A DNA stretch of 64,000 nt from Trypanosoma brucei (GCA_000002445.1 CM000207.1:1568001-1632000); one strand, 5' to 3'. Counted from the first letter of the stretch, positions 45,269-64,000 are shown. The notes: generated from the letters alone by a model not told the origin. Program-made: numbers and translations.

Positions 45269-46135
45269 TTATTTGGCATCTTTTTCACTTTTCATATTAC
45301 TACCAATGTTACTCGCTGCCGATGCCGCAGTACTCCTCTTCACCCCCGCCCAAATATAATGACCGGTGTATAACCTACTGGAAAGACGGAAGCTTAAATG
45401 TAATTGACGTGAGGCAAAAGTCTTAAGAACGTCTGGACACGCTACAATATGCCGCATCTCTATTTGTGAAACACCATGGTTAAGCGCACATCTTGACAGA
45501 TCAGCGGGTGGAATAAACTTGGCCCAGTCGTGCGTTCCGGGTTCCACTATGCCAGTGATATGTTCCGCCACGACAATAAAGCTCAATGCGGTAAAAAGTG
45601 ACTTATCCATGGTGGAAATTACAAGCACGCCACCGGGTTTTGTTGCTGCGCAAATATCGTGCAAAAATGCCGCCGCATCGCTCACGTGTTCAATTACCTC
45701 CGAAGCCACTACAAGTTCAAATTGCCGTCCTTCTCCCTCCACCACCTCGTGAAGTGGCACACAACGATATGCAAGCGATGCTTGTGGAGTAATATCACGG
45801 AGAACTCGCTGACGCCGCTCCTCTGCTACGGCAATACTTTCCTTACACATGTCAATGCCCAATACATCACCACCTAATCGTGCAATGCTCTCAGAAAGAA
45901 TACCTCCACCACAACCAACATCCAATACACTCATTCCTGGTCTTATTCCTGCTGTAGCAGCCAAGTCGGATGGAGTAAATGCGCACCGGCATGCCTTATT
46001 TATGAACTCAACGCGTACAGGATTGAATTGATGTAATGTACGTAAGGGACCTTGCGGGCACCACCAATATTTCTGCAAGCGACTGAACTTAGAAATCTCA
46101 GCAGCTGATACGCCGCGAGCCATTGCTGAGGACAT
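45269..46135 (-). CDS. COQ3: Ubiquinone biosynthesis O-methyltransferase COQ3/UbiG (class I SAM-dependent methyltransferase)
   Basis: AEISKFSRLQKYWWCPQGPLRTLHQFNPVRVEFI is the UbiG/Coq3 N-terminal signature. SAM motif I VLDVGCGGGILSE. ORF-track start 46159 is TTG; ATGs at 46133-46135 and 46121-46123. Confidence 0.85.
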   Translation of the reverse strand: MSSAMARGVSAAEISKFSRLQKYWWCPQGPLRTLHQFNPVRVEFINKACRCAFTPSDLAATAGIRPGMSVLDVGCGGGILSESIARLGGDVLGIDMCKESIAVAEERRQRVLRDITPQASLAYRCVPLHEVVEGEGRQFELVVASEVIEHVSDAAAFLHDICAATKPGGVLVISTMDKSLFTALSFIVVAEHITGIVEPGTHDWAKFIPPADLSRCALNHGVSQIEMRHIVACPDVLKTFASRQLHLSFRLSSRLYTGHYIWAGVKRSTAASAASNIGSNMKSEKDAK

Positions 46136-46650
46136 GTGAAAACACCACGAAACCGACAAATAACAAATAATAGCCGTGGTAATATACCAAACTATAATAA
46201 TAATTATTATTATATATAGATGGATATATATAGATACAGATACAGATATATGCTACTGATATATTCGCTATGAACTTTCTTGTAACTAACCGCGTAGGGG
46301 CGCCGGATTCTTCTCTTTTTTTTTTCCTTTTCACCTTCCCCCCCTACCTTTTTTAGTCAAAAGTGCGAGGGTGATAATCACCTAACATTTAAAGGTGTCG
46401 CAACCATAGGGAGGAACAGAGAAAAAAAAGGCACAAAGACATTAATATATGAATAAATATATGTGAGGAGAACGTAGACAGGAGCAGAGGAAAAAGAAAA
46501 TAATCGCGAATAGTGAAGCAATCGAGATACCGTTACGGGGAAGTGTAAACGCATCGCCGTAAAAAGTCTACATTTTATCGTTTCTTTTCAAAAATTTTCT
46601 TCACCCTTCGTATTTGTGGGCGCGTGTGTGAGAAATTAGTTTCTTGTGTA

Positions 46651-46695
46651 TCTCTCTCTCTCTCTCTCTGTGTGTTTGTTTGTTTGTTTGTTTTA
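46651..46695. repeat. Compound (TC)10(TG)3(TTTG)5 microsatellite
   Basis: tctctctctctctctctctgtgtgtttgtttgtttgtttg. Confidence 0.9.
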
Positions 46696-47488
46696 TTGCT
46701 ATTATTACTTTTTCCCCTTCCTTTTGTCTTCGCGCCCTTTAATCGGTATCCCATTCAGAGGGGGGTTTTCCTCTACGTGAAAGTTTAAAAATCCAAATGT
46801 GAAGCGGTAGCGGCGAAAGTTATGGTAACACCATTACCGAAATGACAAACAAGAAAAATACAAATAAAATCAAGTAATAGACGATAGTAAGTGGTCAAGG
46901 TTTTTTCTTTTCATTTTCAAAGAAAAAAAAGAAAAAAAGAAACTAAAAGAACGAAAGAGTAAACACACTAGATGCTTTTAATCGACTCCTTCGGGGGTAT
47001 TGAAAAATAATAAAACACCGCTCGAGAGGATGGGAAGGGGAGGTATAAAAAGAAGCAACTCATCACACTCGAATTTTTTACTTTTATCCGTTTTCATACA
47101 AATGCATGGACATATATATATATATATATACGCAACAAGACAAAACAAGCACAACGTATCGTATCGTATACCGTCGTATCGCCTCCATTTTTCTTTTTTT
47201 TCCCCTGCTTCTGCTGCTGCTACTGTTTTTGTTGTCTGTCTGTTTTATTTGTTTTATTTTGCTTCTACTCTCGTAGCCTTCGATTCCACTCGCCTTCCGT
47301 TACCTTCTGCCAAATGTACGAAAAGAAAAAAAGGAAAAGAAACGTTTTACAACAATCCTTCTCACGAGGCAAATTCACACGTATCATTTCCCCCCTCTCT
47401 AACCACTTCTCCTTTTGTTTATATATCTATTTATTTATTACCACGCCTTTTTCCACCTTATGTCCTCCGAGTTTCCCTTCACCGTATA

Positions 47489-47513
47489 CATATATATATA
47501 TATATATATATAT
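47489..47513. repeat. (TA)12 microsatellite
   Basis: Read directly from the sequence. A similar (TA)n lies at 47113-47130. Confidence 0.85.
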
Positions 47514-49386
47514 TCCCAATAGTTTCTTTGATCCCACACTCTTTTTTTCTTTTCCTTATCCTTTTTTTTCTCTAACAATGGAAAAGAATTATCATCGCAG
47601 CCACCAGGTAGCGACGAAAAAAAAAACAAACAAAGAAACAAAAGAAGAAAATAACAACAACACCAAAAGTGTCCAGAAAATAAAGGGGAGGGGAGGAAAG
47701 AAAAAAAAGAATGAGTAAAAATATTTAAAATATTTAATGTCATCCGTAAGAACATGCCATAAGGAAGGTTTGGAAAAAAAAAATGAGATATTCGGGATGA
47801 TGAAGTAACCGGCACCGCTTAAGGAGGTAAAGAGGTAACAAAAGATTGAGAGAAGTGAAAAAAAAATGAGGATGAAAATGTAACGAAAAGGGGAAAGAAC
47901 AAGAAGGAGAGGAAAGGGGAGAAAAAAAGAGAGAGAGAGTAGAAAACAAAACAAACAAACAAACAATAATAATTATTATTATTATTATATTAATTAAGTA
48001 CACCCATGCACAGGAGGGAAGGGAAAGGGAAAATATGATGGGGTAAAGCCGCTGTATTCCACTCCTTATAGTTTTAAAACTTATGTACATTCACAAAAGC
48101 ACGCATTCGTGTGGTACAATAAGTCAAGTTTGGAGCGAATAGGAAAGGTGGGCAGAGAAGATGTAACGAACAACGAAGATAAATGGAAGGGGAATTTTTT
48201 AAGTGAAGGAAGAAAAGAGGGAGAAAACAATTCATGCGCACTGCTCGTTTCTCCATTTACTTTTTTTGTTGCTGTTGTTTATTAATTAATTTCTCTTTTA
48301 TTACTTCTTTCCGTTTAACGGAAGAAATATAAATATATACACAAGAATCCCCCCTTTCACATTACTAACTGGAAAAATAATTACTTGAGCAAGTAGTATT
48401 AGTAAACACACACCTTTCTAATTTTTCAACAAAAAGCGCAGAAATAAGATATAATACCGATGGTAATTTAATTGATCATAGAGCTTACTTCGCTTAATGA
48501 CGCACCGACCTTCACAAACATACACTCATGTATGAAAGTTTACGTTTGTTTTCACACAAAAATGTAACTGAGAAAACAAACAAAATTCGAAACCGTACAT
48601 AAATTGTTACTCACTGCAAGAGCCGAAAGACGACCACTCCCAAATATAAACAAACATAAGCGTAAGCGCAAACGGACAATAAAAACGAGTACATATACAT
48701 ATATACATATATATATATATGATCTGTATGCATAATGATAATAATAGTAACAGTGACTTTTATACAGTAGCTACGCACGGACTCAGTTGCCGTTGCAGCG
48801 CGTCTAACTGTACATTCAATATATAAAAAAGGTAAAAAAATATTTAAAGATAGAAAAATGGCATGTCGTTGATAAGTATTGGGGAACGCCTTAAATCTAA
48901 AGTACGCAAAAGGGCCACGAATCCCTGACCGGGTACACACGCACAACCAAAGAGAACTACAAGAAAAAAAACATTGTTGACTTACGATGTTCGAGTCTGT
49001 ATTCACAGAGCCGTTGCGTACCTGTTATTTAAAAACGTTGTTGCGACATTGTTTGCTTGCTTCTTTTTTTGTTTTTTTTGTTATTGTTTTCGCCATCGTT
49101 GTTATTGTGACAACGTCTATAAGTATAAGCACGCACAAAAAACACATGCACACACAAATGGCGATAGTACGGAGCTGCAGCAGGAAGGAGAAGTAACTGT
49201 CATTAATCGACTCACCGCAGTCATTTTCCACGACAAAAAAAAAAAGGAACTGCAGCACTAAAATGACGTGCCACCAGTGTCCTTTCCTTCCCTTTACTTC
49301 ATTTTTACCTTTTTCTTTGTCTGTCACTCTCTCTCTCTCAAACACACACGTCGCCGGATTCGAACACAATCAAATCCATTCAATAC

Positions 49387-51754: not shown

Positions 51755-54022
51755 TCATTTCAGCAAAGGGTAGTTTGTGTAACTGACACCATCCTTCAGG
51801 ATTCTAGAAATTGTTAAAGCAATATACGACATCCAAAAAATCACAAAGAACAAAATCTCACCACGCATCCAATACCGTGGCACAAACAGCATCGAGAAAC
51901 TCACAAGGGTCGCTAGCACTGCAGCTGCCATACCACCAAGTACCATTCTGTTGAGCCCTGAAAAGTTACGGGAAAATGGACTCTCAAATTGAGTGTGGAA
52001 AAGAGCAGGATCATGCTGACACGTGAGTAGAGAAACGGCATCCTGTTTCTGTCCATCAAAGAAATTTTGTTGCCACCAGCGGCGCAGTGCGATTCGCACC
52101 ACATCAAACGTGGCCGGTCCCCATTCCCCAGTTAGTAGAAAGTCCACAAAATGGGGGTCGCTTCCAGCGTACAACCTGGAAAGTGAAATTCCCAGTTCAA
52201 CCCACATATGCTTACATCTCTCTACGCTGCAATGAAACTCACCATTCCCTCGCGCTCCGTCACTTCCATCATCCTCATCTTCATACTCATCCTCATCGTC
52301 ACTGAGGTTCATTTCTTCCCCATGCCCAAGTACATACCTAATCATCTGAGGAAGAATGTTAATAGCAATCATGGACTGAACAAGGTTTGTCCGATCCAAG
52401 CAATCCAAACAGTTCACCCGAACGTAATGTTTCTGCTGGTGGACAAGAACCAACTCGCAAGTCGCCCCGTCAGCATCAGCGGTGCTGGGAACAGATGGAG
52501 GCGATGACCCACTCGATGGAGACGGATGTCCTTCATTGCTAAACTTCCAAAAATCTACGAACTGCGATCCACCTTCGTTTTTCCTATTTAGCAGAGTATC
52601 AACTTCCATTCGCATTAAGTTGTAAGGCGCATTTTTAGCCCTCCGTTCCTTTACGTTGTATTTTGTATAATAAACGTCAACGGGCCTTGAGAGAGCGCCA
52701 TTCCCTTCACGAAGTTTTAATGCCGCTGCTTCGAACGCCTTTGAAATTGGCAACTCGGCTTTGCTAAGCGACGTGGTGTCAAGACAATGGATAGATGTCA
52801 TCCCATCGAATAAAGCCAAAAGGGCATTTAAATGCAAGACCAGTTCATCAACCCCTGACGATGGCGAAGATATGGTAATCGTGGGGATGAATGTTAAATT
52901 CGCTGGCTGACTCCAGCAACGAGGCACAGAACCACGAAGAATGGTAAAGGCTGCCACGCGCTGCTTTTCATTAGCGGCCTTATCCCCCTCGTTTCCCGAC
53001 GCTAAAGGAAAGACCCAAAGCGTTGATGCAGAAAAGTTCGCTGCAATCCCACTACCAGCATTGTCAAGCCCACGCCGATTGTATCGCGTACCCGCCCACC
53101 GGTAACTAAGGCGATTGATGAGCAACATCTGAACACCCTCCTCGGGGGAAGTAGTCGCCTCCACAATACCCCTAATAAACGCAGGAACGTACACGTGGTA
53201 ATCACAATTCAGCGAAGCTACAACCTCATCAAACGCACCAAGCAGAGGCGAATTCCACTGGAAAACCACCCGCTGCGATATTTGTCCCTCGGAAGAAATC
53301 GCTAAAGAAAAGGCGCCACCACCCTTCACGCTGCTGCCATTCAACGACGGCGTGAGTACCTCCTTCATACCCTTCACAACATCACCAGGTTCCAGGGTTA
53401 AGTTCGCAGTCGGTGAATAGTAAAAATAAGAAGCACCGCAATGTTGCTCCGACTGCGCACAAAAGCTATCGACAACCCTACAATACTCTAAAACCATTTC
53501 TTCCCTGGCATGGCTTTGTGAAGAACCCTGCGAAGCGCTTGCTTCATCTTTCTCGCCTGAACCACCATCACCACCGTCCCCACTCTTATTCACGGACAGG
53601 TCAGACGCTGTTTCCGGTAGTCGAAGCCACGACAGCTGCTTTACCGCAAACACGTCGTGGGTCTCCCCAATAGTTAATGTGGTAATACGTTCCCGTTCAG
53701 AAACATACAAAAGTATCGACGCAGAGCCAATGCGAAGAACACCAAATAAAGCATAACAGGGAATACAACGGACCGGTGTAAACTCTTCAAATCCAGAGGA
53801 GGAAGCATCGGACATAACTCCATCATCAACCACATCACAAACCGCCTTTTCAGAATCTTTGCTAACATGAGAAACGGCATCATCCGCAGCCACATTACTC
53901 GGCAACACGAAACATTGACGCTCCAAATTCCAAATAAGTCTGGGATAAGAATCATCATTAGGGACAAAAGAGGCAGATTCACCATCAATAACGATATTTC
54001 CAAAAAAATCCCCTACAGACAT
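51755..54022 (-). CDS. SAC1-like phosphoinositide phosphatase (Sac domain, C-terminal TM anchors)
   Basis: 755 aa. Catalytic CX5R(T/S) motif RVNCLDCLDRTNLVQ. Sac-domain blocks (RYNRRGLDNAGSGIAANF). Two C-terminal TM helices. ATG at 54020-54022. Confidence 0.8.
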   Translation of the reverse strand: MSVGDFFGNIVIDGESASFVPNDDSYPRLIWNLERQCFVLPSNVAADDAVSHVSKDSEKAVCDVVDDGVMSDASSSGFEEFTPVRCIPCYALFGVLRIGSASILLYVSERERITTLTIGETHDVFAVKQLSWLRLPETASDLSVNKSGDGGDGGSGEKDEASASQGSSQSHAREEMVLEYCRVVDSFCAQSEQHCGASYFYYSPTANLTLEPGDVVKGMKEVLTPSLNGSSVKGGGAFSLAISSEGQISQRVVFQWNSPLLGAFDEVVASLNCDYHVYVPAFIRGIVEATTSPEEGVQMLLINRLSYRWAGTRYNRRGLDNAGSGIAANFSASTLWVFPLASGNEGDKAANEKQRVAAFTILRGSVPRCWSQPANLTFIPTITISSPSSGVDELVLHLNALLALFDGMTSIHCLDTTSLSKAELPISKAFEAAALKLREGNGALSRPVDVYYTKYNVKERRAKNAPYNLMRMEVDTLLNRKNEGGSQFVDFWKFSNEGHPSPSSGSSPPSVPSTADADGATCELVLVHQQKHYVRVNCLDCLDRTNLVQSMIAINILPQMIRYVLGHGEEMNLSDDEDEYEDEDDGSDGARGNGEFHCSVERCKHMWVELGISLSRLYAGSDPHFVDFLLTGEWGPATFDVVRIALRRWWQQNFFDGQKQDAVSLLTCQHDPALFHTQFESPFSRNFSGLNRMVLGGMAAAVLATLVSFSMLFVPRYWMRGEILFFVIFWMSYIALTISRILKDGVSYTNYPLLK

Positions 54023-54321
54023 AATTCACCTACAACTAAAAATAAAAAACAATAAATGTCAAACTATTTCCTAAGGGGTAAAGATAATTATGCACTCACC
54101 AACATAAATCTCCAAAAAAAAAAGGAAATATAAATACAAGAAAAAGCAAAAAAAAAACAAAAACTCGCTACAAACAAAACAACTACATAAAATAGAATAA
54201 ACAAAAAATTAAAAGAACAATATAACAAACATTATCCAGCGGAAAAAACAAAGACTTACACAAAAAAAAAACATCAAACAACAACCTAATCCACAAAGCA
54301 AAAAGTTATTTTCAAAAAAGA

Positions 54322-57300
54322 ACACCCAAACACTTACTCAGAAGTCAAACAGACAAAATTAACTGATGTCAGCATCAAATAAATTCAGCTGAAACACGGA
54401 TTTGACAGACTCATCATTGACACAAAACAAGGTAAGAGCAACACCACCAAACAGTTCAGAGCAGGAATAAGAAGGAGGGCGGCATGTACATATGTGTGTG
54501 GGGTAATGTTGGTGTAATGGGGAAAAGGTGAGAAAGTTACCGTACGCCTCGGACGCAGGACGCACGCGGCTGGAATGTTGTGCGGCGCCCCAGAAACTAT
54601 CGTAACACTCGTGCTCAATCCATGTTCGGGTGTGTGTCATAAGACCGTCGTAAGTGGTTTATCGTCATGGGCAAAGTACAAGGTGTATCCGCAGTGACCA
54701 AAGAGACAATGCAGAATCTGGCAAAGAGAAAGGGCGAAAGCCAAGCAATAAGGGTGGTTTCAAATGTAAAACAAGGAAAAAGGGAGGGGAGGGGGGTGAC
54801 AGTAACCACACACATGGTATGATAACGTGCCACGACGAAACCAAACACCATCAGCCGGGGAAAGAAGAATATTCTTTAAATGGGTTATTGTCATTCAAAT
54901 ACACTCAGAGACTCCAGTCCATTGATGTCATCAAGTAGCGCGTTTACGACAGGTTAGGTGTACCGCAAAGCAACTCTCGGAGCGCACCAAGATGGCCTAC
55001 GGCATGCAATCACAAAACGGCCGCTCCATGGCTAAAGCCCCTTTTTCATTTTTGTTGTCCATAAAAACACTGAAGGGAGAAAACAGAGGAAGGAGAAGGT
55101 AACAATATCAAACAAGAGAAGAGTGTGCACTAACCAATAACCTCCGTTATAATTCTCGGACCACGTGAGTGTGCAAACAAGGACACAGAAATGTTAGCCC
55201 AAGACACAACTCCAATGTGGGCCTTCCCCTACGGTTACTGCCCCAACACATAATTGTAATTATAATAATAACCATAATCATAATTATACACCTGACGTCA
55301 AGTGAAAAAAACTCGGCGCGTCAGAAACAATATTAGCGTCACGGGTTCTGTTCAGATGTTGCTGTTAATTTGTTATATTAGGTATTCATCACACGCACCT
55401 ACTCGCCGAACTGCTAACCCCACACGTCAGCTCGGAGCGAAAGATAGAGTTCACAGTTGCATCGACATAGTGTGTTTCCGTTCCGCCTACGCGGTATCGG
55501 AAGCTCTTTCATCAGTGGCGGGGAACGACGGATGGGGGATAAACACTTAACAGAGGGGAAAATGTGCATGAAATAGGTAATACAATAAGAGAAGGGGGAA
55601 GTAAACAGGGAATCACGGAAGTAAGGTTCAGTGCAGGTCTGTGTTATGGTGTCCTCACAGGTTCTCGGTGCAATTTGAACATATTGTACATCGTCACCTA
55701 CTACATTCCCTCTCGACTACCCCGCCACTCACAACATTATACTGCCGCCCACATTAGCCATTCCAAACTCACTGCGGTAATGTATCCTCGTGTGTGCTTG
55801 CGTGTATATGTGTATATATGTGTATGTGTATGGAGTCGCGCCCAAGTGCCCGAGGTTGAGTACCTGAAGGACACGATAGCCATCAGACCCGAAAGGTGAT
55901 TTGTGTTGTATAGATCCCTCATGAATATGACGTCGGAACATGTTTGGACGCTCAACTAGTTTCCATCATCGGCCACACACATACACAAACATACAAGCAC
56001 ACACACACACACACACACTCACATATATATATATATATATACATACACGACAAACCTCCGCACACCCAAACACTTACTCAGAAGTCAAACAGACAAAATT
56101 AACTGATGTCAGCATCAAATAAATTCAGCTGAAACACGGATTTGACAGACTCATCATTGACACAAAACAAGGTAAGAGCAACACCACCAAACAGTTCAGA
56201 GCAGGAATAAGAAGGAGGGCGGCATGTACATATGTGTGTGGGGTAATGTTGGTGTAATGGGGAAAAGGTGAGAAAGTTACCGTACGCCTCGGACGCAGGA
56301 CGCACGCGGCTGGAATGTTGTGCGGCGCCCCAGAAACTATCGTAACACTCGTGCTCAATCCATGTTCGGGTGTGTGTCATAAGACCGTCGTAAGTGGTTT
56401 ATCGTCATGGGCAAAGTACAAGGTGTATCCGCAGTGACCAAAGAGACAATGCAGAATCTGGCAAAGAGAAAGGGCGAAAGCCAAGCAATAAGGGTGGTTT
56501 CAAATGTAAAACAAGGAAAAAGGGAGGGGAGGGGGGTGACAGTAACCACACACATGGTATGATAACGTGCCACGACGAAACCAAACACCATCAGCCGGGG
56601 AAAGAAGAATATTCTTTAAATGGGTTATTGTCATTCAAATACACTCAGAGACTCCAGTCCATTGATGTCATCAAGTAGCGCGTTTACGACAGGTTAGGTG
56701 TACCGCAAAGCAACTCTCGGAGCGCACCAAGATGGCCTACGGCATGCAATCACAAAACGGCCGCTCCATGGCTAAAGCCCCTTTTTCATTTTTGTTGTCC
56801 ATAAAAACACTGAAGGGAGAAAACAGAGGAAGGAGAAGGTAACAATATCAAACAAGAGAAGAGTGTGCACTAACCAATAACCTCCGTTATAATTCTCGGA
56901 CCACGTGAGTGTGCAAACAAGGACACAGAAATGTTAGCCCAAGACACAACTCCAATGTGGGCCTTCCCCTACGGTTACTGCCCCAACACATAATTGTAAT
57001 TATAATAATAACCATAATCATAATTATACACCTGACGTCAAGTGAAAAAAACTCGGCGCGTCAGAAACAATATTAGCGTCACGGGTTCTGTTCAGATGTT
57101 GCTGTTAATTTGTTATATTAGGTATTCATCACACGCACCTACTCGCCGAACTGCTAACCCCACACGTCAGCTCGGAGCGAAAGATAGAGTTCACAGTTGC
57201 ATCGACATAGTGTGTTTCCGTTCCGCCTACGCGGTATCGGAAGCTCTTTCATCAGTGGCGGGGAACGACGGATGGGGGATAAACACTTAACAGAGGGGAA

Positions 57301-60300
57301 AATGTGCATGGAATAGGTAATACAATAAGAGAAGGGGGAAGTAAACAGGGAATCACGGAAGTAAGGTTCAGTGCAGGTCTGTGTTATGGTGTCCTCACAG
57401 GTTCTCGGTGCAATTTGAACATATTGTACATCGTCACCCACTACATTCCCTCTCGACTACCCCGCCACTCACAACATTATACTGCCGCCCACATTAGCCA
57501 TTCCAAACTCACTGCGGTAATGTATCCTCGTGTGTGCTTGCGTGTATATGTGTATATATGTGTATATATGTGTATGTGTATGGAGTCGCGCCCAAGTGCC
57601 CGAGGTTGAGTACCTGAAGGACACGATAGCCATCAGACCCGAAAGGTGATTTGTGTTGTATAGATCCCTCATGAATATGACGTCGGAACATGTTTGGACG
57701 CTCAACTAGTTTCCATCATCGGCCACACACATACACAAACATACAAGCACACACACATACACACACTCACATATATATATATATATATATATACATACAC
57801 GACAAACCTCCGCACACCCAAACACTTACTCAGAAGTCAAACAGACAAAATTAACTGATGTCAGCATCAAATAAATTCAGCTGAAACACGGATTTGACAG
57901 ACTCATCATTGACACAAAACAAGGTAAGAGCAACACCACCAAACAGTTCAGAGCAGGAATAAGAAGGAGGGCGGCATGTACATATGTGTGTGGGGTAATC
58001 TTGGTGTAATGGGGAAAAGGTGAGAAAGTTACCGTACGCCTCGGACGCAGGACGCACGCGGCTGGAATGTTGTGCGGCGCCCCAGAAACTATCGTAACAC
58101 TCGTGCTCAATCCATGTTCGGGTGTGTGTCATAAGACCGTCGTAAGTGGTTTATCGTCATGGGCAAAGTACAAGGTGTATCCGCAGTGACCAAAGAGACA
58201 ATGCAGAATCTGGCAAAGAGAAAGGGCGAAAGCCAAGCAATAAGGGTGGTTTCAAATGTAAAACAAGGAAAAAGGGAGGGGAGGGGGGTGACAGTAACCA
58301 CACACATGGTATGATAACGTGCCACGACGAAACCAAACACCATCAGCCGGGGAAAGAAGAATATTCTTTAAATGGGTTATTGTCATTCAAATACACTCAG
58401 AGACTCCAGTCCATTGATGTCATCAAGTAGCGCGTTTACGACAGGTTAGGTGTACCGCAAAGCAACTCTCGGAGCGCACCAAGATGGCCTACGGCATGCA
58501 ATCACAAAACGGCCGCTCCATGGCTAAAGCCCCTTTTTCATTTTTGTTGTCCATAAAAACACTGAAGGGAGAAAACAGAGGAAGGAGAAGGTAACAATAT
58601 CAAACAAGAGAAGAGTGTGCACTAACCAATAACCTCCGTTATAATTCTCGGACCACGTGAGTGTGCAAACAAGGACACAGAAATGTTAGCCCAAGACACA
58701 ACTCCAATGTGGGCCTTCCCCTACGGTTACTGCCCCAACACATAATTGTAATTATAATAATAACCATAATCATAATTATACACCTGACGTCAAGTGAAAA
58801 AAACTCGGCGCGTCAGAAACAATATTAGCGTCACGGGTTCTGTTCAGATGTTGCTGTTAATTTGTTATATTAGGTATTCATCACACGCACCTACTCGCCG
58901 AACTGCTAACCCCACACGTCAGCTCGGAGCGAAAGATAGAGTTCACAGTTGCATCGACATAGTGTGTTTCCGTTCCGCCTACGCGGTATCGGAAGCTCTT
59001 TCATCAGTGGCGGGGAACGACGGATGGGGGATAAACACTTAACAGAGGGGAAAATGTGCATGGAATAGGTAATACAATAAGAAAAGGGGGAAGTAAACAG
59101 GGAATCACGGAAGTAAGGTTCAGTGCAGGTCTGTGTTATGGTGTCCTCACAGGTTCTCGGTGCAATTTGAACATATTGTACATCGTCACCCACTACATTC
59201 CCTCTCGACTACCCCGCCACTCACAACATTATACTGCCGCCCACATTAGCCATTCCAAACTCACTGCGGTAATGTATCCTCGTGTGTGCTTGCGTGTATA
59301 TGTGTATATATGTGTATGTGTATGGAGTCGCGCCCAAGTGCCCGAGGTTGAGTACCTGAAGGACACGATAGCCATCAGACCCGAAAGGTGATTTGTGTTG
59401 TATAGATCCCTCATGAATATGACGTCGGAACATGTTTGGACGCTCAACTAGTTTCCATCATCGGCCACACACATACACAAACATACAAGCACACACACAC
59501 ACACACACACTCACATATATATATATATATATACATATATATACACGACAAACCTCCGCACACCCAAACACTTACTCAGAAGTCAAACAGACAAAATTAA
59601 CTGATGTCAGCATCAAATAAATTCAGCTGAAACACGGATTTGACAGACTCATCATTGACACAAAACAAGGTAAGAGCAACACCACCAAACAGTTCAGAGC
59701 AGGAATAAGAAGGAGGGCGGCATGTACATATGTGTGTGGGGTAATCTTGGTGTAATGGGGAAAAGGTGAGAAAGTTACCGTACGCCTCGGACGCAGGACG
59801 CACGCGGCTGGAATGTTGTGCGGCGCCCCAGAAACTATCGTAACACTCGTGCTCAATCCATGTTCGGGTGTGTGTCATAAGACCGTCGTAAGTGGTTTAT
59901 CGTCATGGGCAAAGTACAAGGTGTATCCGCAGTGACCAAAGAGACAATGCAGAATCTGGCAAAGAGAAAGGGCGAAAGCCAAGCAATAAGGGTGGTTTCA
60001 AATGTAAAACAAGGAAAAAGGGAGGGGAGGGGGGTGACAGTAACCACACACATGGTATGATAACGTGCCACGACGAAACCAAACACCATCAGCCGGGGAA
60101 AGAAGAATATTCTTTAAATGGGTTATTGTCATTCAAATACACTCAGAGACTCCAGTCCATTGATGTCATCAAGTAGCGCGTTTACGACAGGTTAGGTGTA
60201 CCGCAAAGCAACTCTCGGAGCGCACCAAGATGGCCTACGGCATGCAATCACAAAACGGCCGCTCCATGGCTAAAGCCCCTTTTTCATTTTTGTTGTCCAT

Positions 60301-63300
60301 AAAAACACTGAAGGGAGAAAACAGAGGAAGGAGAAGGTAACAATATCAAACAAGAGAAGAGTGTGCACTAACCAATAACCTCCGTTATAATTCTCGGACC
60401 ACGTGAGTGTGCAAACAAGGACACAGAAATGTTAGCCCAAGACACAACTCCGATGTGGGCCTTCCCCTACGGTTACTGCCCCAACACATAATTGTAATTA
60501 TAATAATAACCATAATCATAATTATACACCTGACGTCAAGTGAAAAAAACTCGGCGCGTCAGAAACAATATTAGCGTCACGGGTTCTGTTCAGATGTTGC
60601 TGTTAATTTGTTATATTAGGTATTCATCACACGCACCTACTCGCCGAACTGCTAACCCCACACGTCAGCTCGGAGCGAAAGATAGAGTTCACAGTTGCAT
60701 CGACATAGTGTGTTTCCGTTCCGCCTACGCGGTATCGGAAGCTCTTTCATCAGTGGCGGGGAACGACGGATGGGGGATAAACACTTAACAGAGGGGAAAA
60801 TGTGCATGGAATAGGTAATACAATAAGAGAAGGGGGAAGTAAACAGGGAATCACGGAAGTAAGGTTCAGTGCAGGTCTGTGTTATGGTGTCCTCACAGGT
60901 TCTCGGTGCAATTTGAACATATTGTACATCGTCACCCACTACATTCCCTCTCGACTACCCCGCCACTCACAACATTATACTGCCGCCCACATTAGCCATT
61001 CCAAACTCACTGCGGTAATGTATCCTCGTGTGTGCTTGCGTGTATATGTGTATATATGTGTATGTGTATGGAGTCGCGCCCAAGTGCCCGAGGTTGAGTA
61101 CCTGAAGGACACGATAGCCATCAGACCCGAAAGGTGATTTGTGTTGTATAGATCCCTCATGAATATGACGTCGGAACATGTTTGGACGCTCAACTAGTTT
61201 CCATCATCGGCCACACACATACACAAACATACAAGCACACACACACACACACACACTCACATATATATATATATATATACATACACGACAAACCTCCGCA
61301 CACCCAAACACTTACTCAGAAGTCAAACAGACAAAATTAACTGATGTCAGCATCAAATAAATTCAGCTGAAACACGGATTTGACAGACTCATCATTGACA
61401 CAAAACAAGGTAAGAGCAACACCACCAAACAGTTCAGAGCAGGAATAAGAAGGAGGGCGGCATGTACATATGTGTGTGGGGTAATCTTGGTGTAATGGGG
61501 AAAAGGTGAGAAAGTTACCGTACGCCTCGGACGCAGGACGCACGCGGCTGGAATGTTGTGCGGCGCCCCAGAAACTATCGTAACACTCGTGCTCAATCCA
61601 TGTTCGGGTGTGTGTCATAAGACCGTCGTAAGTGGTTTATCGTCATGGGCAAAGTACAAGGTGTATCCGCAGTGACCAAAGAGACAATGCAGAATCTGGC
61701 AAAGAGAAAGGGCGAAAGCCAAGCAATAAGGGTGGTTTCAAATGTAAAACAAGGAAAAAGGGAGGGGAGGGGGGTGACAGTAACCACACACATGGTATGA
61801 TAACGTGCCACGACGAAACCAAACACCATCAGCCGGGGAAAGAAGAATATTCTTTAAATGGGTTATTGTCATTCAAATACACTCAGAGACTCCAGTCCAT
61901 TGATGTCATCAAGTAGCGCGTTTACGACAGGTTAGGTGTACCGCAAAGCAACTCTCGGAGCGCACCAAGATGGCCTACGGCATGCAATCACAAAACGGCC
62001 GCTCCATGGCTAAAGCCCCTTTTTCATTTTTGTTGTCCATAAAAACACTGAAGGGAGAAAACAGAGGAAGGAGAAGGTAACAATATCAAACAAGAGAAGA
62101 GTGTGCACTAACCAATAACCTCCGTTATAATTCTCGGACCACGTGAGTGTGCAAACAAGGACACAGAAATGTTAGCCCAAGACACAACTCCAATGTGGGC
62201 CTTCCCCTACGGTTACTGCCCCAACACATAATTGTAATTATAATAATAACCATAATCATAATTATACACCTGACGTCAAGTGAAAAAAACTCGGCGCGTC
62301 AGAAACAATATTAGCGTCACGGGTTCTGTTCAGATGTTGCTGTTAATTTGTTATATTAGGTATTCATCACACGCACCTACTCGCCGAACTGCTAACCCCA
62401 CACGTCAGCTCGGAGCGAAAGATAGAGTTCACAGTTGCATCGACATAGTGTGTTTCCGTTCCGCCTACGCGGTATCGGAAGCTCTTTCATCAGTGGCGGG
62501 GAACGATGGATGGGGGATAAACACTTAACAGAGGGGAAAATGTGCATGGAATAGGTAATACAATAAGAGAAGGGGGAAGTAAACAGGGAATCACGGAAGT
62601 AAGGTTCAGTGCAGGTCTGTGTTATGGTGTCCTCACAGGTTCTCGGTGCAATTTGAACATATTGTACATCGTCACCCACTACATTCCCTCTCGACTACCC
62701 CGCCACTCACAACATTATACTGCCGCCCACATTAGCCATTCCAAACTCACTGCGGTAATGTATCCTCGTGTGTGCTTGCGTGTATATGTGTATATATGTG
62801 TATGTGTATGGAGTCGCGCCCAAGTGCCCGAGGTTGAGTACCTGAAGGACACGATAGCCATCAGACCCGAAAGGTGATTTGTGTTGTATAGATCCCTCAT
62901 GAATATGACGTCGGAACATGTTTGGACGCTCAACTAGTTTCCATCATCGGCCACACACATACACAAACATACAAGCACACACACACACACACACTCACAT
63001 ATATATATATATATATATACATACACGACAAACCTCCGCACACCCAAACACTTACTCAGAAGTCAAACAGACAAAATTAACTGATGTCAGCATCAAATAA
63101 ATTCAGCTGAAACACGGATTTGACAGACTCATCATTGACACAAAACAAGGTAAGAGCAACACCACCAAACAGTTCAGAGCAGGAATAAGAAGGAGGGCGG
63201 CATGTACATATGTGTGTGGGGTAATGTTGGTGTAATGGGGAAAAGGTGAGAAAGTTACCGTACGCCTCGGACGCAGGACGCACGCGGCTGGAATGTTGTG

Positions 63301-64000
63301 CGGCGCCCCAGAAACTATCGTAACACTCGTGCTCAATCCATGTTCGGGTGTGTGTCATAAGACCGTCGTAAGTGGTTTATCGTCATGGGCAAAGTACAAG
63401 GTGTATCCGCAGTGACCAAAGAGACAATGCAGAATCTGGCAAAGAGAAAGGGCGAAAGCCAAGCAATAAGGGTGGTTTCAAATGTAAAACAAGGAAAAAG
63501 GGAGGGGAGGGGGGTGACAGTAACCACACACATGGTATGATAACGTGCCACGACGAAACCAAACACCATCAGCCGGGGAAAGAAGAATATTCTTTAAATG
63601 GGTTATTGTCATTCAAATACACTCAGAGACTCCAGTCCATTGATGTCATCAAGTAGCGCGTTTACGACAGGTTAGGTGTACCGCAAAGCAACTCTCGGAG
63701 CGCACCAAGATGGCCTACGGCATGCAATCACAAAACGGCCGCTCCATGGCTAAAGCCCCTTTTTCATTTTTGTTGTCCATAAAAACACTGAAGGGAGAAA
63801 ACAGAGGAAGGAGAAGGTAACAATATCAAACAAGAGAAGAGTGTGCACAAACCAATAACCTCCGTTATAATTCTCGGACCACGTGAGTGTGCAAACAAGG
63901 ACACAGAAATGTTAGCCCAAGACACAACTCCAATGTGGGCCTTCCCCTACGGTTACTGCCCCAACACATAATTGTAATTATAATAATAACCATAATCATA
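54322..64000. repeat. Head-to-tail tandem array of a ~1.74 kb unit (5 full copies + 1 partial, truncated by the window edge)
   Basis: Unit boundaries 54322, 56062, 57814, 59560, 61300, 63040, giving unit lengths 1740/1752/1746/1740/1740. About 99.5% identity. Length differences map to internal (TGTATATA)n and (CA)n(TA)n microsatellites. The identical short ORFs in the six-frame track recur at these offsets. Confidence 0.95.
55999..56040. repeat. Compound (CA)n(TA)n microsatellite inside each 1.74 kb unit (recurs in every copy, length-variable)
   Basis: acacacacacacacacacactcacatatatatatatatatat. Copies near 57746-57797, 59480-59536, 61236-61279 and 62976-63019 differ in repeat number. Confidence 0.9.

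What the first reader, a model, noticed from the sequence alone, without database searches (positions are those of the whole stretch)
54322..64000. Open-ended array of near-identical 1.74 kb tandem repeats that may be a reiterated snoRNA gene cluster
**Seen in sequence.** At least 5.5 head-to-tail copies of a 1740-1752 bp unit start at 54322 and run off the window edge, at about 99.5% identity. The unit is about 45% GC, so it is not AT-rich satellite. It has no ORF with protein-like composition: only overlapping 60-111 aa ORFs on both strands, low-complexity and without recognisable homology. Its minus strand is the same sense as the 20-gene transcription unit immediately downstream. That strand carries several arrangements matching the C/D-box snoRNA grammar (RUGAUGA ... 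CUGA ... UGAUG ... CUGA) at small-RNA spacing (see the next two findings).

**Established knowledge.** In trypanosomatids, snoRNAs are typically encoded in tandemly reiterated clusters. Each repeat contains several C/D and H/ACA-like snoRNAs and is transcribed by Pol II within or alongside polycistronic transcription units.

**Inference.** This array is most likely such a cluster, or another reiterated small-RNA locus, rather than coding or centromeric DNA. If the guide sequences turn out not to match known modification sites, it could represent an undescribed RNA family.
Basis: partly seen in the sequence, partly recalled or inferred. Interest (0 to 1): 0.72.

Follow-up and report, generated by a model that had tools for sequence, protein, structure and literature searches.

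The report
Known T. brucei snoRNA gene array

Summary
Five complete units and one partial unit (1740-1752 bp, 99.6-99.9% identical, about 45% GC) run from 54322 off the window end.

The window is T. brucei brucei TREU927 chromosome 9, shown by exact protein matches. The repeat is the published TB9Cs2 snoRNA cluster.

- **Gene content.** Each unit carries nine genes on the minus strand, in the order C3, C4, C5, C6, H1, H2, C7, C1, C2. The window holds 50 gene copies.
- **Rfam.** RF01554 (TB9Cs2H1) hits once per unit at 84-87 bits against a gathering score of 45.
- **Published oligonucleotides.** Nine oligos for TB9Cs2C3 and TB9Cs2C5 match exactly, once per unit.
- **C/D guides.** I fetched independent kinetoplastid rDNA for this test. 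Ten of twelve antisense elements next to D/D' boxes select, by the +5 rule, the nucleotides published as Nm sites for these snoRNAs.
- **H/ACA pockets.** The H1 and H2 pockets land on the published Ψ680 and Ψ1248 sites.
- **Context.** The array lies inside a same-strand gene run. Its copy number differs between subspecies assemblies.

No evidence for a new RNA family was found. Novelty: already known. Interest: low.

The parts
54322..64000 (-). Tandem array of the TB9Cs2 snoRNA cluster: 5 complete units and 1 partial unit, open at the window end. Gene order per unit in the direction of transcription: C3-C4-C5-C6-H1-H2-C7-C1-C2.
   Evidence: period and identity. (gene content).
57630..57726 (-). 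TB9Cs2C3, box C/D snoRNA (reference unit). C box AUGAUGG 57719-57713, D' CCGA 57686-57683, C' AUGAGGG 57672-57666, D CUGA 57636-57633. The 3' end is approximate.
   Evidence: The published sense primer GTGGCCGATGATGGAAACTA matches at the 5' end. The D guide pairs with ACCCGAAAGGUGGU (14 bp) in 106 of 120 kinetoplastid LSU loci, with +5 = G at about LSUα 921 (published Gm925). The D' guide selects a U 11 nt upstream (published Um914) but was found in only 1 locus.
57364..57438 (-). TB9Cs2C4, box C/D snoRNA. C GUGACGA 57437-57431, D' CCGA 57408-57405, C' UGUGAGG 57399-57393, D CUGA 57371-57368. Ends are approximate.
   Evidence: The D guide pairs with GCAGGUCUGUG, with +5 = G at SSU 1867 by primer anchor. 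This equals the published Gm 'SSU_1895', which is position 1867 in mature numbering, context CA(Gm)G, assigned to TB9Cs2C4. No conserved target was found for the D' guide.
57164..57259 (-). TB9Cs2C5, box C/D snoRNA, 96 nt. C CUGAUGA 57255-57249, D CUGA 57170-57167.
   Evidence: Both ends are set by published oligos labelled nt 1-20 and nt 76-96, which match exactly. The D guide pairs with UCGGAGCGAAAGA (13 bp) in 89 of 120 loci, with +5 = G at LSUα 1024. This equals the published Gm1024.
57057..57138 (-). TB9Cs2C6, box C/D snoRNA. C GUGAUGA 57132-57126, D' CUGA 57095-57092, C' CGUGACG 57083-57077, D CUGA 57064-57061. It has a 6-bp terminal stem.
   Evidence: Found by the strict C/D scan. The D' guide pairs with UGUUGCUGUUAA, with +5 = U in the SSU at about 663-669 in free-living kinetoplastids. 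The published site is Um714 (= 686), context U(Um)GC, assigned to TB9Cs2C6. No conserved target was found for the D guide.
56894..56963 (-). TB9Cs2H1, single-hairpin H/ACA-like snoRNA with a 3' AGA box.
   Evidence: Rfam RF01554, 86.8 bits against a gathering score of 45, full model length. The pocket pairs 5+9 bp with UGAGU-UU-GACUCCAGU at LSUβ about 679, 14 nt from the AGA box, in 10 of 11 rDNA units. This equals the published Ψ680.
56712..56768 (-). TB9Cs2H2, H/ACA-like hairpin with the AGA box at 56717-56715. The assignment is by elimination and by target. The 5' end and the upper stem are uncertain.
   Evidence: The lower stem GGAGC/GCUCC is followed by G-AGA. The best pocket target is GCACCAAG-UG-GGCC in 11 of 11 rDNA units at LSUα about 1238, with the P3 arm starting 14 nt before the AGA box. 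The published site is Ψ1248, context AAGΨG, assigned to TB9Cs2H2. There is no Rfam family for it.
56590..56682 (-). TB9Cs2C7, box C/D snoRNA. C UUGAUGA 56674-56668, D' CUGA 56648-56645, C' GAAUGAC 56636-56630, D CUGA 56594-56591.
   Evidence: Found by the strict C/D scan. The D guide pairs with CGGGGAAAGAAGA, +5 = G at LSUβ 658. The D' guide pairs with GACUCCAGUCUG, +5 = U at LSUβ 684. The published sites are LSUβ Gm659 and Um685.
56327..56412 (-). TB9Cs2C1, box C/D snoRNA, assigned by elimination and by target. C AUGACGA 56408-56402, D' AUGA 56380-56377, putative non-canonical D CUGG 56333-56330. The 3' end is uncertain.
   Evidence: The D' guide pairs with AGACCGUCGUGAG (13 bp) in 13 loci, with +5 = C. 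The published site is LSUβ Cm1413 (C1351 in earlier numbering) for TB9Cs2C1.
56077..56160 (-). TB9Cs2C2, box C/D snoRNA. C AUGAUGA 56157-56151, D' CUGA 56128-56125, C' UUGAUGC 56118-56112, D CUGA 56081-56078.
   Evidence: Both guides are complementary to the published T. brucei LSUα 736-755 primer GAAACACGGACCAAGGAGTC. The +5 nucleotides are A738 and C755. The published sites are A742/A743 and C760 in a numbering offset by about 5. The match to the metagenomic loci is circular for this gene, because those loci were fetched with this sequence.
55880..55976 (-). TB9Cs2C3 copy
   Evidence: Identical to the reference copy.
59372..59468 (-). TB9Cs2C3 copy
   Evidence: Identical to the reference copy.
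61118..61214 (-). TB9Cs2C3 copy
   Evidence: Identical to the reference copy.
62858..62954 (-). TB9Cs2C3 copy
   Evidence: Identical to the reference copy.
55624..55698 (-). TB9Cs2C4 copy
   Evidence: Identical to the reference copy.
59116..59190 (-). TB9Cs2C4 copy
   Evidence: Identical to the reference copy.
60862..60936 (-). TB9Cs2C4 copy
   Evidence: Identical to the reference copy.
62602..62676 (-). TB9Cs2C4 copy
   Evidence: Identical to the reference copy.
55424..55519 (-). TB9Cs2C5 copy
   Evidence: Identical to the reference copy.
58916..59011 (-). TB9Cs2C5 copy
   Evidence: Identical to the reference copy.
60662..60757 (-). TB9Cs2C5 copy
   Evidence: Identical to the reference copy.
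62402..62497 (-). TB9Cs2C5 copy
   Evidence: Identical to the reference copy.
55317..55398 (-). TB9Cs2C6 copy
   Evidence: Identical to the reference copy.
58809..58890 (-). TB9Cs2C6 copy
   Evidence: Identical to the reference copy.
60555..60636 (-). TB9Cs2C6 copy
   Evidence: Identical to the reference copy.
62295..62376 (-). TB9Cs2C6 copy
   Evidence: Identical to the reference copy.
55154..55223 (-). TB9Cs2H1 copy
   Evidence: RF01554, 86.8 bits.
58646..58715 (-). TB9Cs2H1 copy
   Evidence: RF01554, 86.8 bits.
60392..60461 (-). TB9Cs2H1 copy with one substitution. This is the only variant among the 50 gene copies.
   Evidence: RF01554, 83.9 bits. One mismatch.
62132..62201 (-). TB9Cs2H1 copy
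   Evidence: RF01554, 86.8 bits.
63872..63941 (-). TB9Cs2H1 copy
   Evidence: RF01554, 86.8 bits.
54972..55028 (-). TB9Cs2H2 copy
   Evidence: Identical to the reference copy.
58464..58520 (-). TB9Cs2H2 copy
   Evidence: Identical to the reference copy.
60210..60266 (-). TB9Cs2H2 copy
   Evidence: Identical to the reference copy.
61950..62006 (-). TB9Cs2H2 copy
   Evidence: Identical to the reference copy.
63690..63746 (-). TB9Cs2H2 copy
   Evidence: Identical to the reference copy.
54850..54942 (-). TB9Cs2C7 copy
   Evidence: Identical to the reference copy.
58342..58434 (-). TB9Cs2C7 copy
   Evidence: Identical to the reference copy.
60088..60180 (-). TB9Cs2C7 copy
   Evidence: Identical to the reference copy.
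61828..61920 (-). TB9Cs2C7 copy
   Evidence: Identical to the reference copy.
63568..63660 (-). TB9Cs2C7 copy
   Evidence: Identical to the reference copy.
54587..54672 (-). TB9Cs2C1 copy
   Evidence: Identical to the reference copy.
58079..58164 (-). TB9Cs2C1 copy
   Evidence: Identical to the reference copy.
59825..59910 (-). TB9Cs2C1 copy
   Evidence: Identical to the reference copy.
61565..61650 (-). TB9Cs2C1 copy
   Evidence: Identical to the reference copy.
63305..63390 (-). TB9Cs2C1 copy
   Evidence: Identical to the reference copy.
54337..54420 (-). TB9Cs2C2 copy, the last gene of the array. Repeat homology ends 15 nt downstream of it, at 54322.
   Evidence: Identical to the reference copy. 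Junction read.
57829..57912 (-). TB9Cs2C2 copy
   Evidence: Identical to the reference copy.
59575..59658 (-). TB9Cs2C2 copy
   Evidence: Identical to the reference copy.
61315..61398 (-). TB9Cs2C2 copy
   Evidence: Identical to the reference copy.
63055..63138 (-). TB9Cs2C2 copy
   Evidence: Identical to the reference copy.
57540..57600 (.). (TA/TG)n microsatellite in the C3-C4 spacer. Unit 2 carries a 10-nt expansion here. A second (TA/TG)n tract at about 57745-57800, in the C2-C3 spacer, also varies between units.
   Evidence: All indels between units and between subspecies lie in the spacers.
54023..54321 (-). Pyrimidine/T-rich (in the minus-strand sense) intergenic stretch between the end of the array and the start codon of the synaptojanin-like gene (51755-54022, minus strand).
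   Evidence: Sequence read. Gene identity (XP_827348.1).

Best explanation
The array is the TB9Cs2 snoRNA gene cluster of Trypanosoma brucei brucei TREU927, chromosome 9. Each 1.74 kb unit encodes, on the minus strand, seven box C/D snoRNAs (C1-C7) and two single-hairpin H/ACA-like snoRNAs with an AGA box (H1, H2).

How it works. The first step is inferred from context and literature, the rest is shown in published work.
1. RNA polymerase II reads through the array as part of the minus-strand polycistronic unit.
2. The long precursor is cut and trimmed into individual RNAs of about 57-97 nt.
3. The C/D RNAs assemble with the methyltransferase NOP1/fibrillarin. They 2'-O-methylate the rRNA nucleotide paired to the fifth position upstream of their D or D' box.
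4. The H/ACA-like RNAs assemble with CBF5. They convert the unpaired U in their bipartite pocket to pseudouridine.
5. According to published knock-downs, C1, C3 and C5 are also needed for the trypanosome-specific cleavages that fragment the large-subunit rRNA.

Tandem reiteration multiplies gene dosage. This fits C1, C5 and C3 being among the most abundant snoRNAs in the cell.
For: **Identity.**
- Two proteins encoded in the window are exact matches to T. b. brucei TREU927 entries on a 3,057,547 bp record.
- Nine published oligonucleotides for TB9Cs2C3 and TB9Cs2C5 (PMC6411936 Table S1) match 20/20 or 21/21. Each matches once per unit, in the orientation expected for minus-strand genes.
- Rfam RF01554 TB9Cs2H1 hits once per unit at 83.9-86.8 bits, against a gathering score of 45.

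**Content.**
- The published list of cluster members is C1-C7, H1 and H2, nine in total. I find nine genes per unit.

**Guide function, tested on independent data.**
- The test used 120 kinetoplastid rDNA loci from metagenomes, 11 of them near-complete units.
- The unit's minus strand has 7 exact antisense elements of at least 11 nt conserved in at least 9 of 11 rDNA units. All 7 lie 0-1 nt upstream of CUGA.
- The plus strand has 1 such element. Shuffles average 0.65-0.76 (maximum 3-4). The other 54 kb of the window has 57 such elements, none followed by CUGA.
- By the +5 rule, 10 of 12 guides select a nucleotide of the same identity as the published Nm site for that snoRNA. Where a primer anchor is near, the position is the same or within a few nt. 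Examples: C5 selects G1024 of LSUα, C4 selects G1867 of SSU, and C7 selects G658 and U684 of LSUβ.
- The H1 and H2 pockets land on the published Ψ680 and Ψ1248 sites at the canonical 14 nt from the AGA box.

**Expression and function (literature).**
- All nine have non-zero RPKM in three small-RNA libraries. C1, C5 and C3 fall in the 96th-98th percentile of one library.
- Published snoRNAi phenotypes exist for C1, C3 and C5.

**Context.**
- Same-strand genes flank the array on both sides.
- Published work states that trypanosome snoRNA clusters are transcribed polycistronically by Pol II (PMC3273796).
Against: Nothing contradicts the identification. The caveats are these:
- The rDNA used for the guide test comes from environmental kinetoplastids, not T. 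brucei. Positions are estimated from primer anchors and can differ by a few nucleotides, and by more in the variable SSU region around Um714.
- The two C2 guide matches are circular, because the loci were fetched with that sequence.
- The C3 D' target was found in only one locus.
- The bipartite H/ACA scan is not specific on its own. Shuffled guides often reach 10-11 loci. Its weight comes from coincidence with experimentally mapped Ψ sites.
- C1 and H2 were assigned by elimination plus target match, not by a published sequence. C1 has a non-canonical putative D box (CUGG), and the H2 upper stem is weak.
- RNA ends other than those of C5 are approximate.
- Pol II read-through transcription is inferred, not tested here.
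Confidence: 0.97

Rival explanations
1. A reiterated locus for an undescribed small-RNA family. This was the first reader's fallback reading: snoRNA-like boxes, but guides that match no known modification site.
For: At gathering score Rfam recognises only one of the nine genes. Two antisense elements (C4 D' and C6 D) have no conserved rRNA target in the kinetoplastid rDNA set.
Against: All nine genes correspond to named, published TB9Cs2 members. Ten of twelve guides and both H/ACA pockets hit published modification sites. Rfam simply holds few trypanosomatid C/D families.
Confidence: 0.02
2. A non-functional satellite, centromeric or structural repeat whose snoRNA-like motifs are incidental.
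For: The array is long, head-to-tail and near-identical, has no protein-coding capacity, and contains TA/TG microsatellites.
Against: The unit is 45% GC and complex. It contains nine expressed snoRNA genes. Its density of rRNA-antisense elements is 7 per 1.75 kb on one strand only, each abutting a D box, against about 0.9 per 1.75 kb elsewhere with none abutting a D box. The array lies inside a gene run rather than at a strand-switch or repeat-rich region.
Confidence: 0.005
3. An assembly artefact: a single-copy or low-copy cluster inflated by mis-assembly.
For: Near-identical tandem repeats are hard to assemble. The copy number differs between assemblies: at least 5.5 units in TREU927, 3 full units plus a partial in gambiense DAL972, and 4 plus a partial in equiperdum.
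Against: Tandem organisation is seen in three independent assemblies, each with unit-specific SNPs and microsatellite lengths. Published work describes T. brucei snoRNA clusters as repeated. Only the exact copy number is uncertain.
Confidence: 0.005

Closest known systems
TB9Cs2 snoRNA cluster of Trypanosoma brucei (Liang et al. 2005, RNA 11:619; Michaeli et al. 2012, PMC3273796; Chikne et al. 2019, PMC6411936)
   Same: It is the same locus. The evidence is exact matches to published oligos, the Rfam family named after its H1 member, the same nine members, the same rRNA targets, and the same genome.
   Different: Nothing differs biologically. I could not read the original 2005 description, so the published gene boundaries and repeat number were not compared.
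Other reiterated trypanosomatid snoRNA clusters (for example TB6Cs1, TB11Cs2 with SLA1/snR30, and the clusters of Leishmania major and Leptomonas collosoma)
   Same: They share mixed C/D and single-hairpin AGA-box H/ACA-like genes, short spacers, tandem reiteration, and Pol II polycistronic transcription followed by processing (PMC3273796 introduction).
   Different: They carry different guide sets and targets. Homologous clusters in other genera were not fetched here.
Yeast and human functional counterparts
   Same: A review equates TB9Cs2C3 with snR39b and TB9Cs2C5 with snR60 (PMC6562600). From my own memory, not tested here: the C2 D' target (GAAAC in UUGAAACACGGA) corresponds to the U18 site, and the C4 target (CAGGUCUGUG of 18S) corresponds to the snR56/U25 site.
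   Different: The yeast and human genes are mostly independently transcribed or intronic, not in 1.7 kb tandem arrays. Eukaryotic H/ACA RNAs outside trypanosomatids and Euglena normally have two hairpins and an ACA box.
Polycistronic snoRNA clusters of plants
   Same: Several snoRNAs are processed from one precursor.
   Different: Plant clusters are generally not reiterated head-to-tail at more than 99% identity. This comparison rests on general knowledge and was not tested here.

Membership tests
TB9Cs2 cluster (identity of the locus) | Sequence identity to published TB9Cs2 snoRNA oligonucleotides | tested here: met
   Nine oligos for TB9Cs2C3 and TB9Cs2C5 match exactly, once per unit, in the correct orientation.
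TB9Cs2 cluster (identity of the locus) | Located in the T. brucei genome, chromosome 9 | tested here: met
   The flanking proteins are identical to TREU927 XP_827348.1 and XP_827339.1 on a 3.06 Mb record. The chromosome number is implied by the 'TB9' nomenclature and the size of the record. It was not read from an annotation.
TB9Cs2 cluster (identity of the locus) | Nine members (C1-C7, H1, H2) with the published targets | tested here: met
   Nine genes per unit. The targets agree with the published sites for all nine.
Box C/D snoRNA | C box (RUGAUGA) near the 5' end and D box (CUGA) near the 3' end | tested here: met
   The C boxes have 0-1 mismatch in all seven genes. A canonical CUGA D box is present in six. 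C1 has only a putative CUGG.
Box C/D snoRNA | An antisense element of at least 10 nt directly upstream of D or D', with the modified nucleotide paired to position +5 | tested here: met
   Duplexes of 11-14 bp with no mismatch, G·U pairs allowed (the seven conserved elements are exact Watson-Crick over at least 11 nt), for 10 of 12 guides. The +5 nucleotide has the same identity as the published Nm site.
Box C/D snoRNA | Terminal 5'/3' stem | tested here: inconclusive
   C3, C6 and C7 have 6-bp stems. The stems of C1, C2, C4 and C5 are weak or absent, which is common in trypanosomatid C/D snoRNAs.
Box C/D snoRNA | Stable RNA of about 70-100 nt bound by NOP1/fibrillarin, and loss of Nm on depletion | not testable with these tools
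   Literature only: read counts, and reduced Gm1024, Um914 and Gm925 after snoRNAi.
Trypanosomatid H/ACA-like snoRNA | Single hairpin followed by an AGA box near the 3' end | tested here: met
   H1 gives a full-length match to the RF01554 structure. H2 has a lower stem followed by G-AGA, but its upper stem is weak and the fold z-score is only -0.3.
Trypanosomatid H/ACA-like snoRNA | Bipartite pocket complementary to rRNA, with the target U about 14-15 nt upstream of the box | tested here: met
   H1 pairs 5+9 bp at the Ψ680 site and H2 pairs 8+4 bp at the Ψ1248 site, both 14 nt from the AGA box. The scan alone is not specific. Support comes from coincidence with mapped Ψ sites.
Reiterated trypanosomatid snoRNA cluster within a Pol II polycistronic unit | Head-to-tail repeats mixing C/D and H/ACA-like genes, flanked by same-strand protein genes | tested here: met
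   In gambiense the array lies between a VMA21-like gene plus a 131-aa ORF and the synaptojanin gene, all on one strand.
Reiterated trypanosomatid snoRNA cluster within a Pol II polycistronic unit | Transcription by Pol II as a polycistron, followed by nucleolytic processing | not testable with these tools
   Stated in the literature (PMC3273796). It was not tested here.

The most novel reading that the evidence does not exclude
The cluster itself is known, but some details are not settled by my evidence. Two antisense elements in canonical guide position have no conserved rRNA target: C4 D' (57430-57409) and C6 D (57076-57065). The H1 pocket pairs poorly with the H69 Ψ518 site that the literature attributes to it. 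These elements could have undescribed targets, such as T. brucei-specific rRNA segments, spacers, or non-rRNA substrates. Ψ518 could be made by a different guide.
Probability: 0.12. Interest if true: 0.3.

Novelty: already known. Interest (0 to 1): 0.08.

Why it matters
This locus matters little as a discovery. TB9Cs2 has been catalogued since 2005, and its members have been characterised functionally: rRNA methylation and pseudouridylation, and roles of C1, C3 and C5 in the trypanosome-specific fragmentation of LSU rRNA.

The result is useful as a validation. A reader without tools correctly recognised a reiterated snoRNA cluster from box grammar and genomic context. The guide test on environmental kinetoplastid rDNA, run without using the published site assignments, reproduced the published modification map.

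Tried and rejected
- **G·U-tolerant 10-mer antisense scan**. It was too permissive, covered most of each snoRNA, and was discarded.
- **Box-anchored duplex scoring with mismatches**. The controls were too high. It was kept only for the anchored positions of C4, C5 and C2.
- **Apparent 23-nt sense-orientation match of the H2 interior to rDNA loci**. It was an artefact of merging overlapping 11-mers from different loci.
- **Control chunk 1-1752, which scored 4 antisense elements**. None of them abuts a D box, so this is chance.
- **First H/ACA pocket scan.** It timed out and was rewritten. Its shuffle control shows low specificity.
- **Search for extra RNAs in the spacers.** A CGAGA motif in the C3-C4 spacer resembles the 3' ends of H1 and H2. 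Folding nine spacer segments gave z-scores from +0.4 to -2.0, so nothing is convincing.
- **Sub-threshold Rfam hits.** These were SNORD96, snoR38, snoZ266, SNORD126, and mir-297 on the microsatellites. They are not meaningful for family membership.
- **Repeated plus-strand ORFs of 101-111 aa.** No Pfam match.
- **Liang et al. 2005 (PMC1370750).** Not held in the library.
I judged a full homology search too costly for a copy number.
- **Selection test comparing gene and spacer substitutions between TREU927 and gambiense.** There were too few differences to be informative: 2 in 740 gene nt against 6 in 1010 spacer nt.

Full report
**1. The observation**

The repeat finder places six in-register copies at 54322, 56062, 57814, 59560, 61300 and 63040. 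The spacings are 1740, 1752, 1746, 1740 and 1740. The last copy is cut by the window end after 961 nt.

An alignment of the units has only 30 variable columns. Pairwise identity of the complete units is 99.60-99.89%. All length differences fall in two TA/TG microsatellites. GC is 0.44-0.46 across the array. The only ORFs of at least 100 aa in the array are repeated plus-strand ORFs of 101-111 aa without a Pfam match.

Every ORF of at least 200 aa in the rest of the window is on the minus strand, except one antisense shadow ORF.

**2. What the sequence is**

A gathering-threshold Rfam scan of the whole window returns one family only: RF01554, 'Trypanosomatid snoRNA TB9Cs2H1'. It hits once per unit on the minus strand, full length, at 86.8 bits against a gathering score of 45. 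One copy scores 83.9 bits because of a single substitution.

The name points to snoRNA cluster 2 of T. brucei chromosome 9. An exact look-up of two proteins encoded in the window returns T. brucei brucei TREU927 entries on a 3,057,547 bp record. They are XP_827348.1, a synaptojanin N-terminal-domain protein at 51755-54022 (minus strand), and XP_827339.1.

The oligonucleotide table of Chikne et al. 2019 (PMC6411936, Table S1) lists primers for TB9Cs2C3 and TB9Cs2C5. All nine that I tested match the window exactly. Each matches once per unit, with sense primers on the minus strand. The primers labelled 'TB9Cs2C5 (1-20 nt)' and '(76-96 nt)' fix that gene at 57259-57164 in the second unit.

**3. 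Anatomy of a unit**

Table S2 of the same paper lists nine members for this cluster: C1-C7, H1 and H2. All have non-zero read counts in three libraries.

Reading the minus strand and locating the boxes gives nine genes per unit. In the direction of transcription they are:

| Gene | Coordinates in unit 2 | Type |
|---|---|---|
| C3 | 57726-57630 | box C/D |
| C4 | 57438-57364 | box C/D |
| C5 | 57259-57164 | box C/D |
| C6 | 57138-57057 | box C/D |
| H1 | 56963-56894 | H/ACA-like |
| H2 | 56768-56712 | H/ACA-like |
| C7 | 56682-56590 | box C/D |
| C1 | 56412-56327 | box C/D |
| C2 | 56160-56077 | box C/D |

The spacers are 25-190 nt long. Most are pyrimidine-rich, and two carry microsatellites.

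The window holds 50 gene copies: six each of H1, H2, C7, C1 and C2, and five each of C3-C6. All are identical except for one substitution in the H1 copy at 60392-60461. C boxes have 0-1 mismatch to RUGAUGA. Six genes have a canonical CUGA D box. C1 has only a putative CUGG.

**4. Independent test of guide function**

No T. brucei rRNA is available in the tools, so I fetched real kinetoplastid rDNA. I joined the published LSUα 736-755 primer (GAAACACGGACCAAGGAGTC) to the 8 nt that the C2 D-guide predicts should follow it.

These contigs carry the kinetoplastid SSU 5' signature. They also carry exact copies of published T. brucei primers for SSU, 5.8S, LSUα and LSUβ in the expected order. Eleven contigs hold near-complete rDNA units.

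An unbiased search then asked which exact stretches of at least 11 nt in the unit are antisense to sites conserved in at least 9 of the 11 rDNA units.

| Sequence searched | Conserved antisense elements | Followed within 0-1 nt by CUGA |
|---|---|---|
| Unit, minus strand | 7 | all 7 |
| Unit, plus strand | 1 | none |
| 300 shuffles of the unit | mean 0.65-0.76, maximum 3-4 | not assessed |
| Remaining 54 kb of the window, both strands | 57 | none |

Two of the seven minus-strand elements belong to C2 and are circular, because that sequence was used to fetch the loci. The other five are independent.

I then applied the +5 rule with contiguous pairing. The predicted nucleotides are compared below with the published Nm sites for the same snoRNAs.

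| Guide | Predicted nucleotide and position | Published site |
|---|---|---|
| C3 D | G, LSUα about 921 | Gm925 |
| C3 D' | U, 11 nt upstream (one locus only) | Um914 |
| C4 D | G, SSU 1867 | 'SSU_1895' = 1867 in mature numbering, CA(Gm)G |
| C5 D | G, LSUα 1024 | Gm1024 |
| C6 D' | U in UGUUGC | Um714 = 686, U(Um)GC |
| C7 D | G, LSUβ 658 | Gm659 |
| C7 D' | U, LSUβ 684 | Um685 |
| C1 D' (box AUGA) | C in AGACCGUCGUGAG | LSUβ Cm1413 |
| C2 D' | A, LSUα 738 | A742/A743 |
| C2 D | C, LSUα 755 | C760 |

The published C2 sites use a numbering offset by about 5. The C4 D' and C6 D elements have no conserved target.

**5. The two H/ACA-like RNAs**

With the pocket defined by the Rfam structure, the best bipartite target for H1 is 5'-UGAGU-UU-GACUCCAGU-3' at LSUβ about 679. 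It pairs 5+9 bp, lies 14 nt from the AGA box, and is found in 10 of 11 rDNA units. The published Ψ table lists TB9Cs2H1 for LSUβ Ψ680.

The H2 candidate has a lower stem followed by G-AGA. Its best target, found in 11 of 11 units, is 5'-GCACCAAG-UG-GGCC-3' at LSUα about 1238. The P3 arm starts 14 nt before the AGA box. The published target of TB9Cs2H2 is LSUα Ψ1248, in the context AAGΨG.

This kind of scan is not specific on its own. Shuffled guides frequently yield a candidate shared by 10-11 loci. The evidence is the coincidence with experimentally mapped sites.

**6. Context and boundaries**

On the side nearest the protein genes, repeat homology ends at 54322, which is 15 nt after a complete C2. 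A T-rich stretch (in the minus-strand sense) then runs to the synaptojanin start codon at 54022.

The far end is outside the window. In T. b. gambiense DAL972 and T. b. equiperdum the same interval holds smaller arrays with a period of about 1672. They have 3 and 4 full units respectively, each preceded by a partial unit H1-H2-C7-C1-C2.

In those assemblies the array is preceded by same-strand genes: BBS1, a VMA21-like gene, and a 131-aa ORF. The upstream junction cuts into the 5' stem strand of the first H1 copy, which reads GCGACAC instead of GGCCCAC and scores 70.5 bits.

The array is therefore embedded in a long same-strand gene run. Published work states that trypanosome snoRNA clusters are transcribed polycistronically by Pol II and then processed (PMC3273796).

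**7. Mechanism**

Shown here:
- gene content, box architecture and strand;
- antisense complementarity at canonical positions;
- tandem reiteration with near-perfect homogenisation.

Taken from the literature:
- expression of all nine members, with C1, C5 and C3 in the 96th-98th percentile of one library;
- loss of Gm1024, Um914 and Gm925 on snoRNAi;
- LSU rRNA processing defects after depletion of C1, C3 or C5.

Inferred:
- read-through Pol II transcription from the upstream genes;
- gene dosage as the reason for reiteration.

**8. Verdict**

The locus is the already described TB9Cs2 cluster. The alternative that it represents an undescribed RNA family is excluded. Novelty: already known. Interest: low.

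Noticed in passing
window 56894-56963 (H1), and loci L030 and L041: The published tables attribute both LSUβ Ψ680 and the H69 site Ψ518 to TB9Cs2H1. On real kinetoplastid rDNA the H1 pocket pairs 5+9 bp at the Ψ680 site. At GGGAG-UA-ACUAUGAC (Ψ518) it pairs poorly: in the Rfam register neither arm starts with more than one pair. By my own reading of the sequences, not by a script, a register shifted by one nucleotide gives at most about 3+3 contiguous bp. In the published CBF5-depletion data Ψ680 drops by 86% and Ψ518 by only 24%. The Ψ518 assignment may deserve a second look.
   Followed up: partly
window 57285-57826 and 57045-57524: The published 'Antisense T7 TB9Cs2C3' northern primer maps to the 3' end of C4, not C3, so a probe made with that pair spans C3, the spacer and C4. 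The published silencing-construct primer pairs bracket C3+C4 (57826-57285) and C4+C5+C6 (57524-57045). If those amplicons were used as they stand, the dsRNA would cover neighbouring snoRNAs as well.
   Followed up: partly
window 57409-57430 (C4 D' guide) and 57065-57076 (C6 D guide): These two antisense elements sit in canonical guide position but have no conserved rRNA target in 120 kinetoplastid rDNA loci. No second site is listed for these snoRNAs in the published tables I read.
   Followed up: partly
L001 3783-3852 and L002 2113-2182: In the gambiense and equiperdum assemblies the array begins inside H1. The first H1 copy has three substitutions in the 5' strand of its basal stem (GCGACAC instead of GGCCCAC) and scores 70.5 bits instead of 86.8. 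It may be a dead copy at the array edge.
   Followed up: partly
window 56330-56333 (C1): TB9Cs2C1 has no canonical CUGA D box. The only candidate next to the terminal GCC/GGC pairing is CUGG, and its methylation guide uses an AUGA D' box. The published 3' end was not available for comparison.
   Followed up: no
window 57347-57358: A 12-nt stretch just 3' of C4 (CCGUGAUUCCCU on the minus strand) is identical in sense, not antisense, to a site conserved in 10 of 11 rDNA units. This is probably chance, since the background is about one such element per unit.
   Followed up: no
window 57586-57626: A hairpin immediately downstream of C3 (UCGUGUCC...GGGCGCGA) contributes to the only spacer segment with a fold z-score near -2 (6 of 200 shuffles fold as well; nine segments were tested). 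It could be a processing signal or it could be noise.
   Followed up: no
window 9982-11469 (minus strand): A 495-aa ORF contains two internal tandem repeats: 24 nt x 12.7 copies (10043-10346) and 81 nt x 10.1 copies (10467-11288). It is a repeat-rich protein gene unrelated to the finding.
   Followed up: no
window 46000-49000: This is the lowest-GC stretch of the window (0.34-0.37), with no ORF of at least 200 aa between 46159 and 49387. It has no Rfam or tRNA hit. It was not examined further.
   Followed up: no
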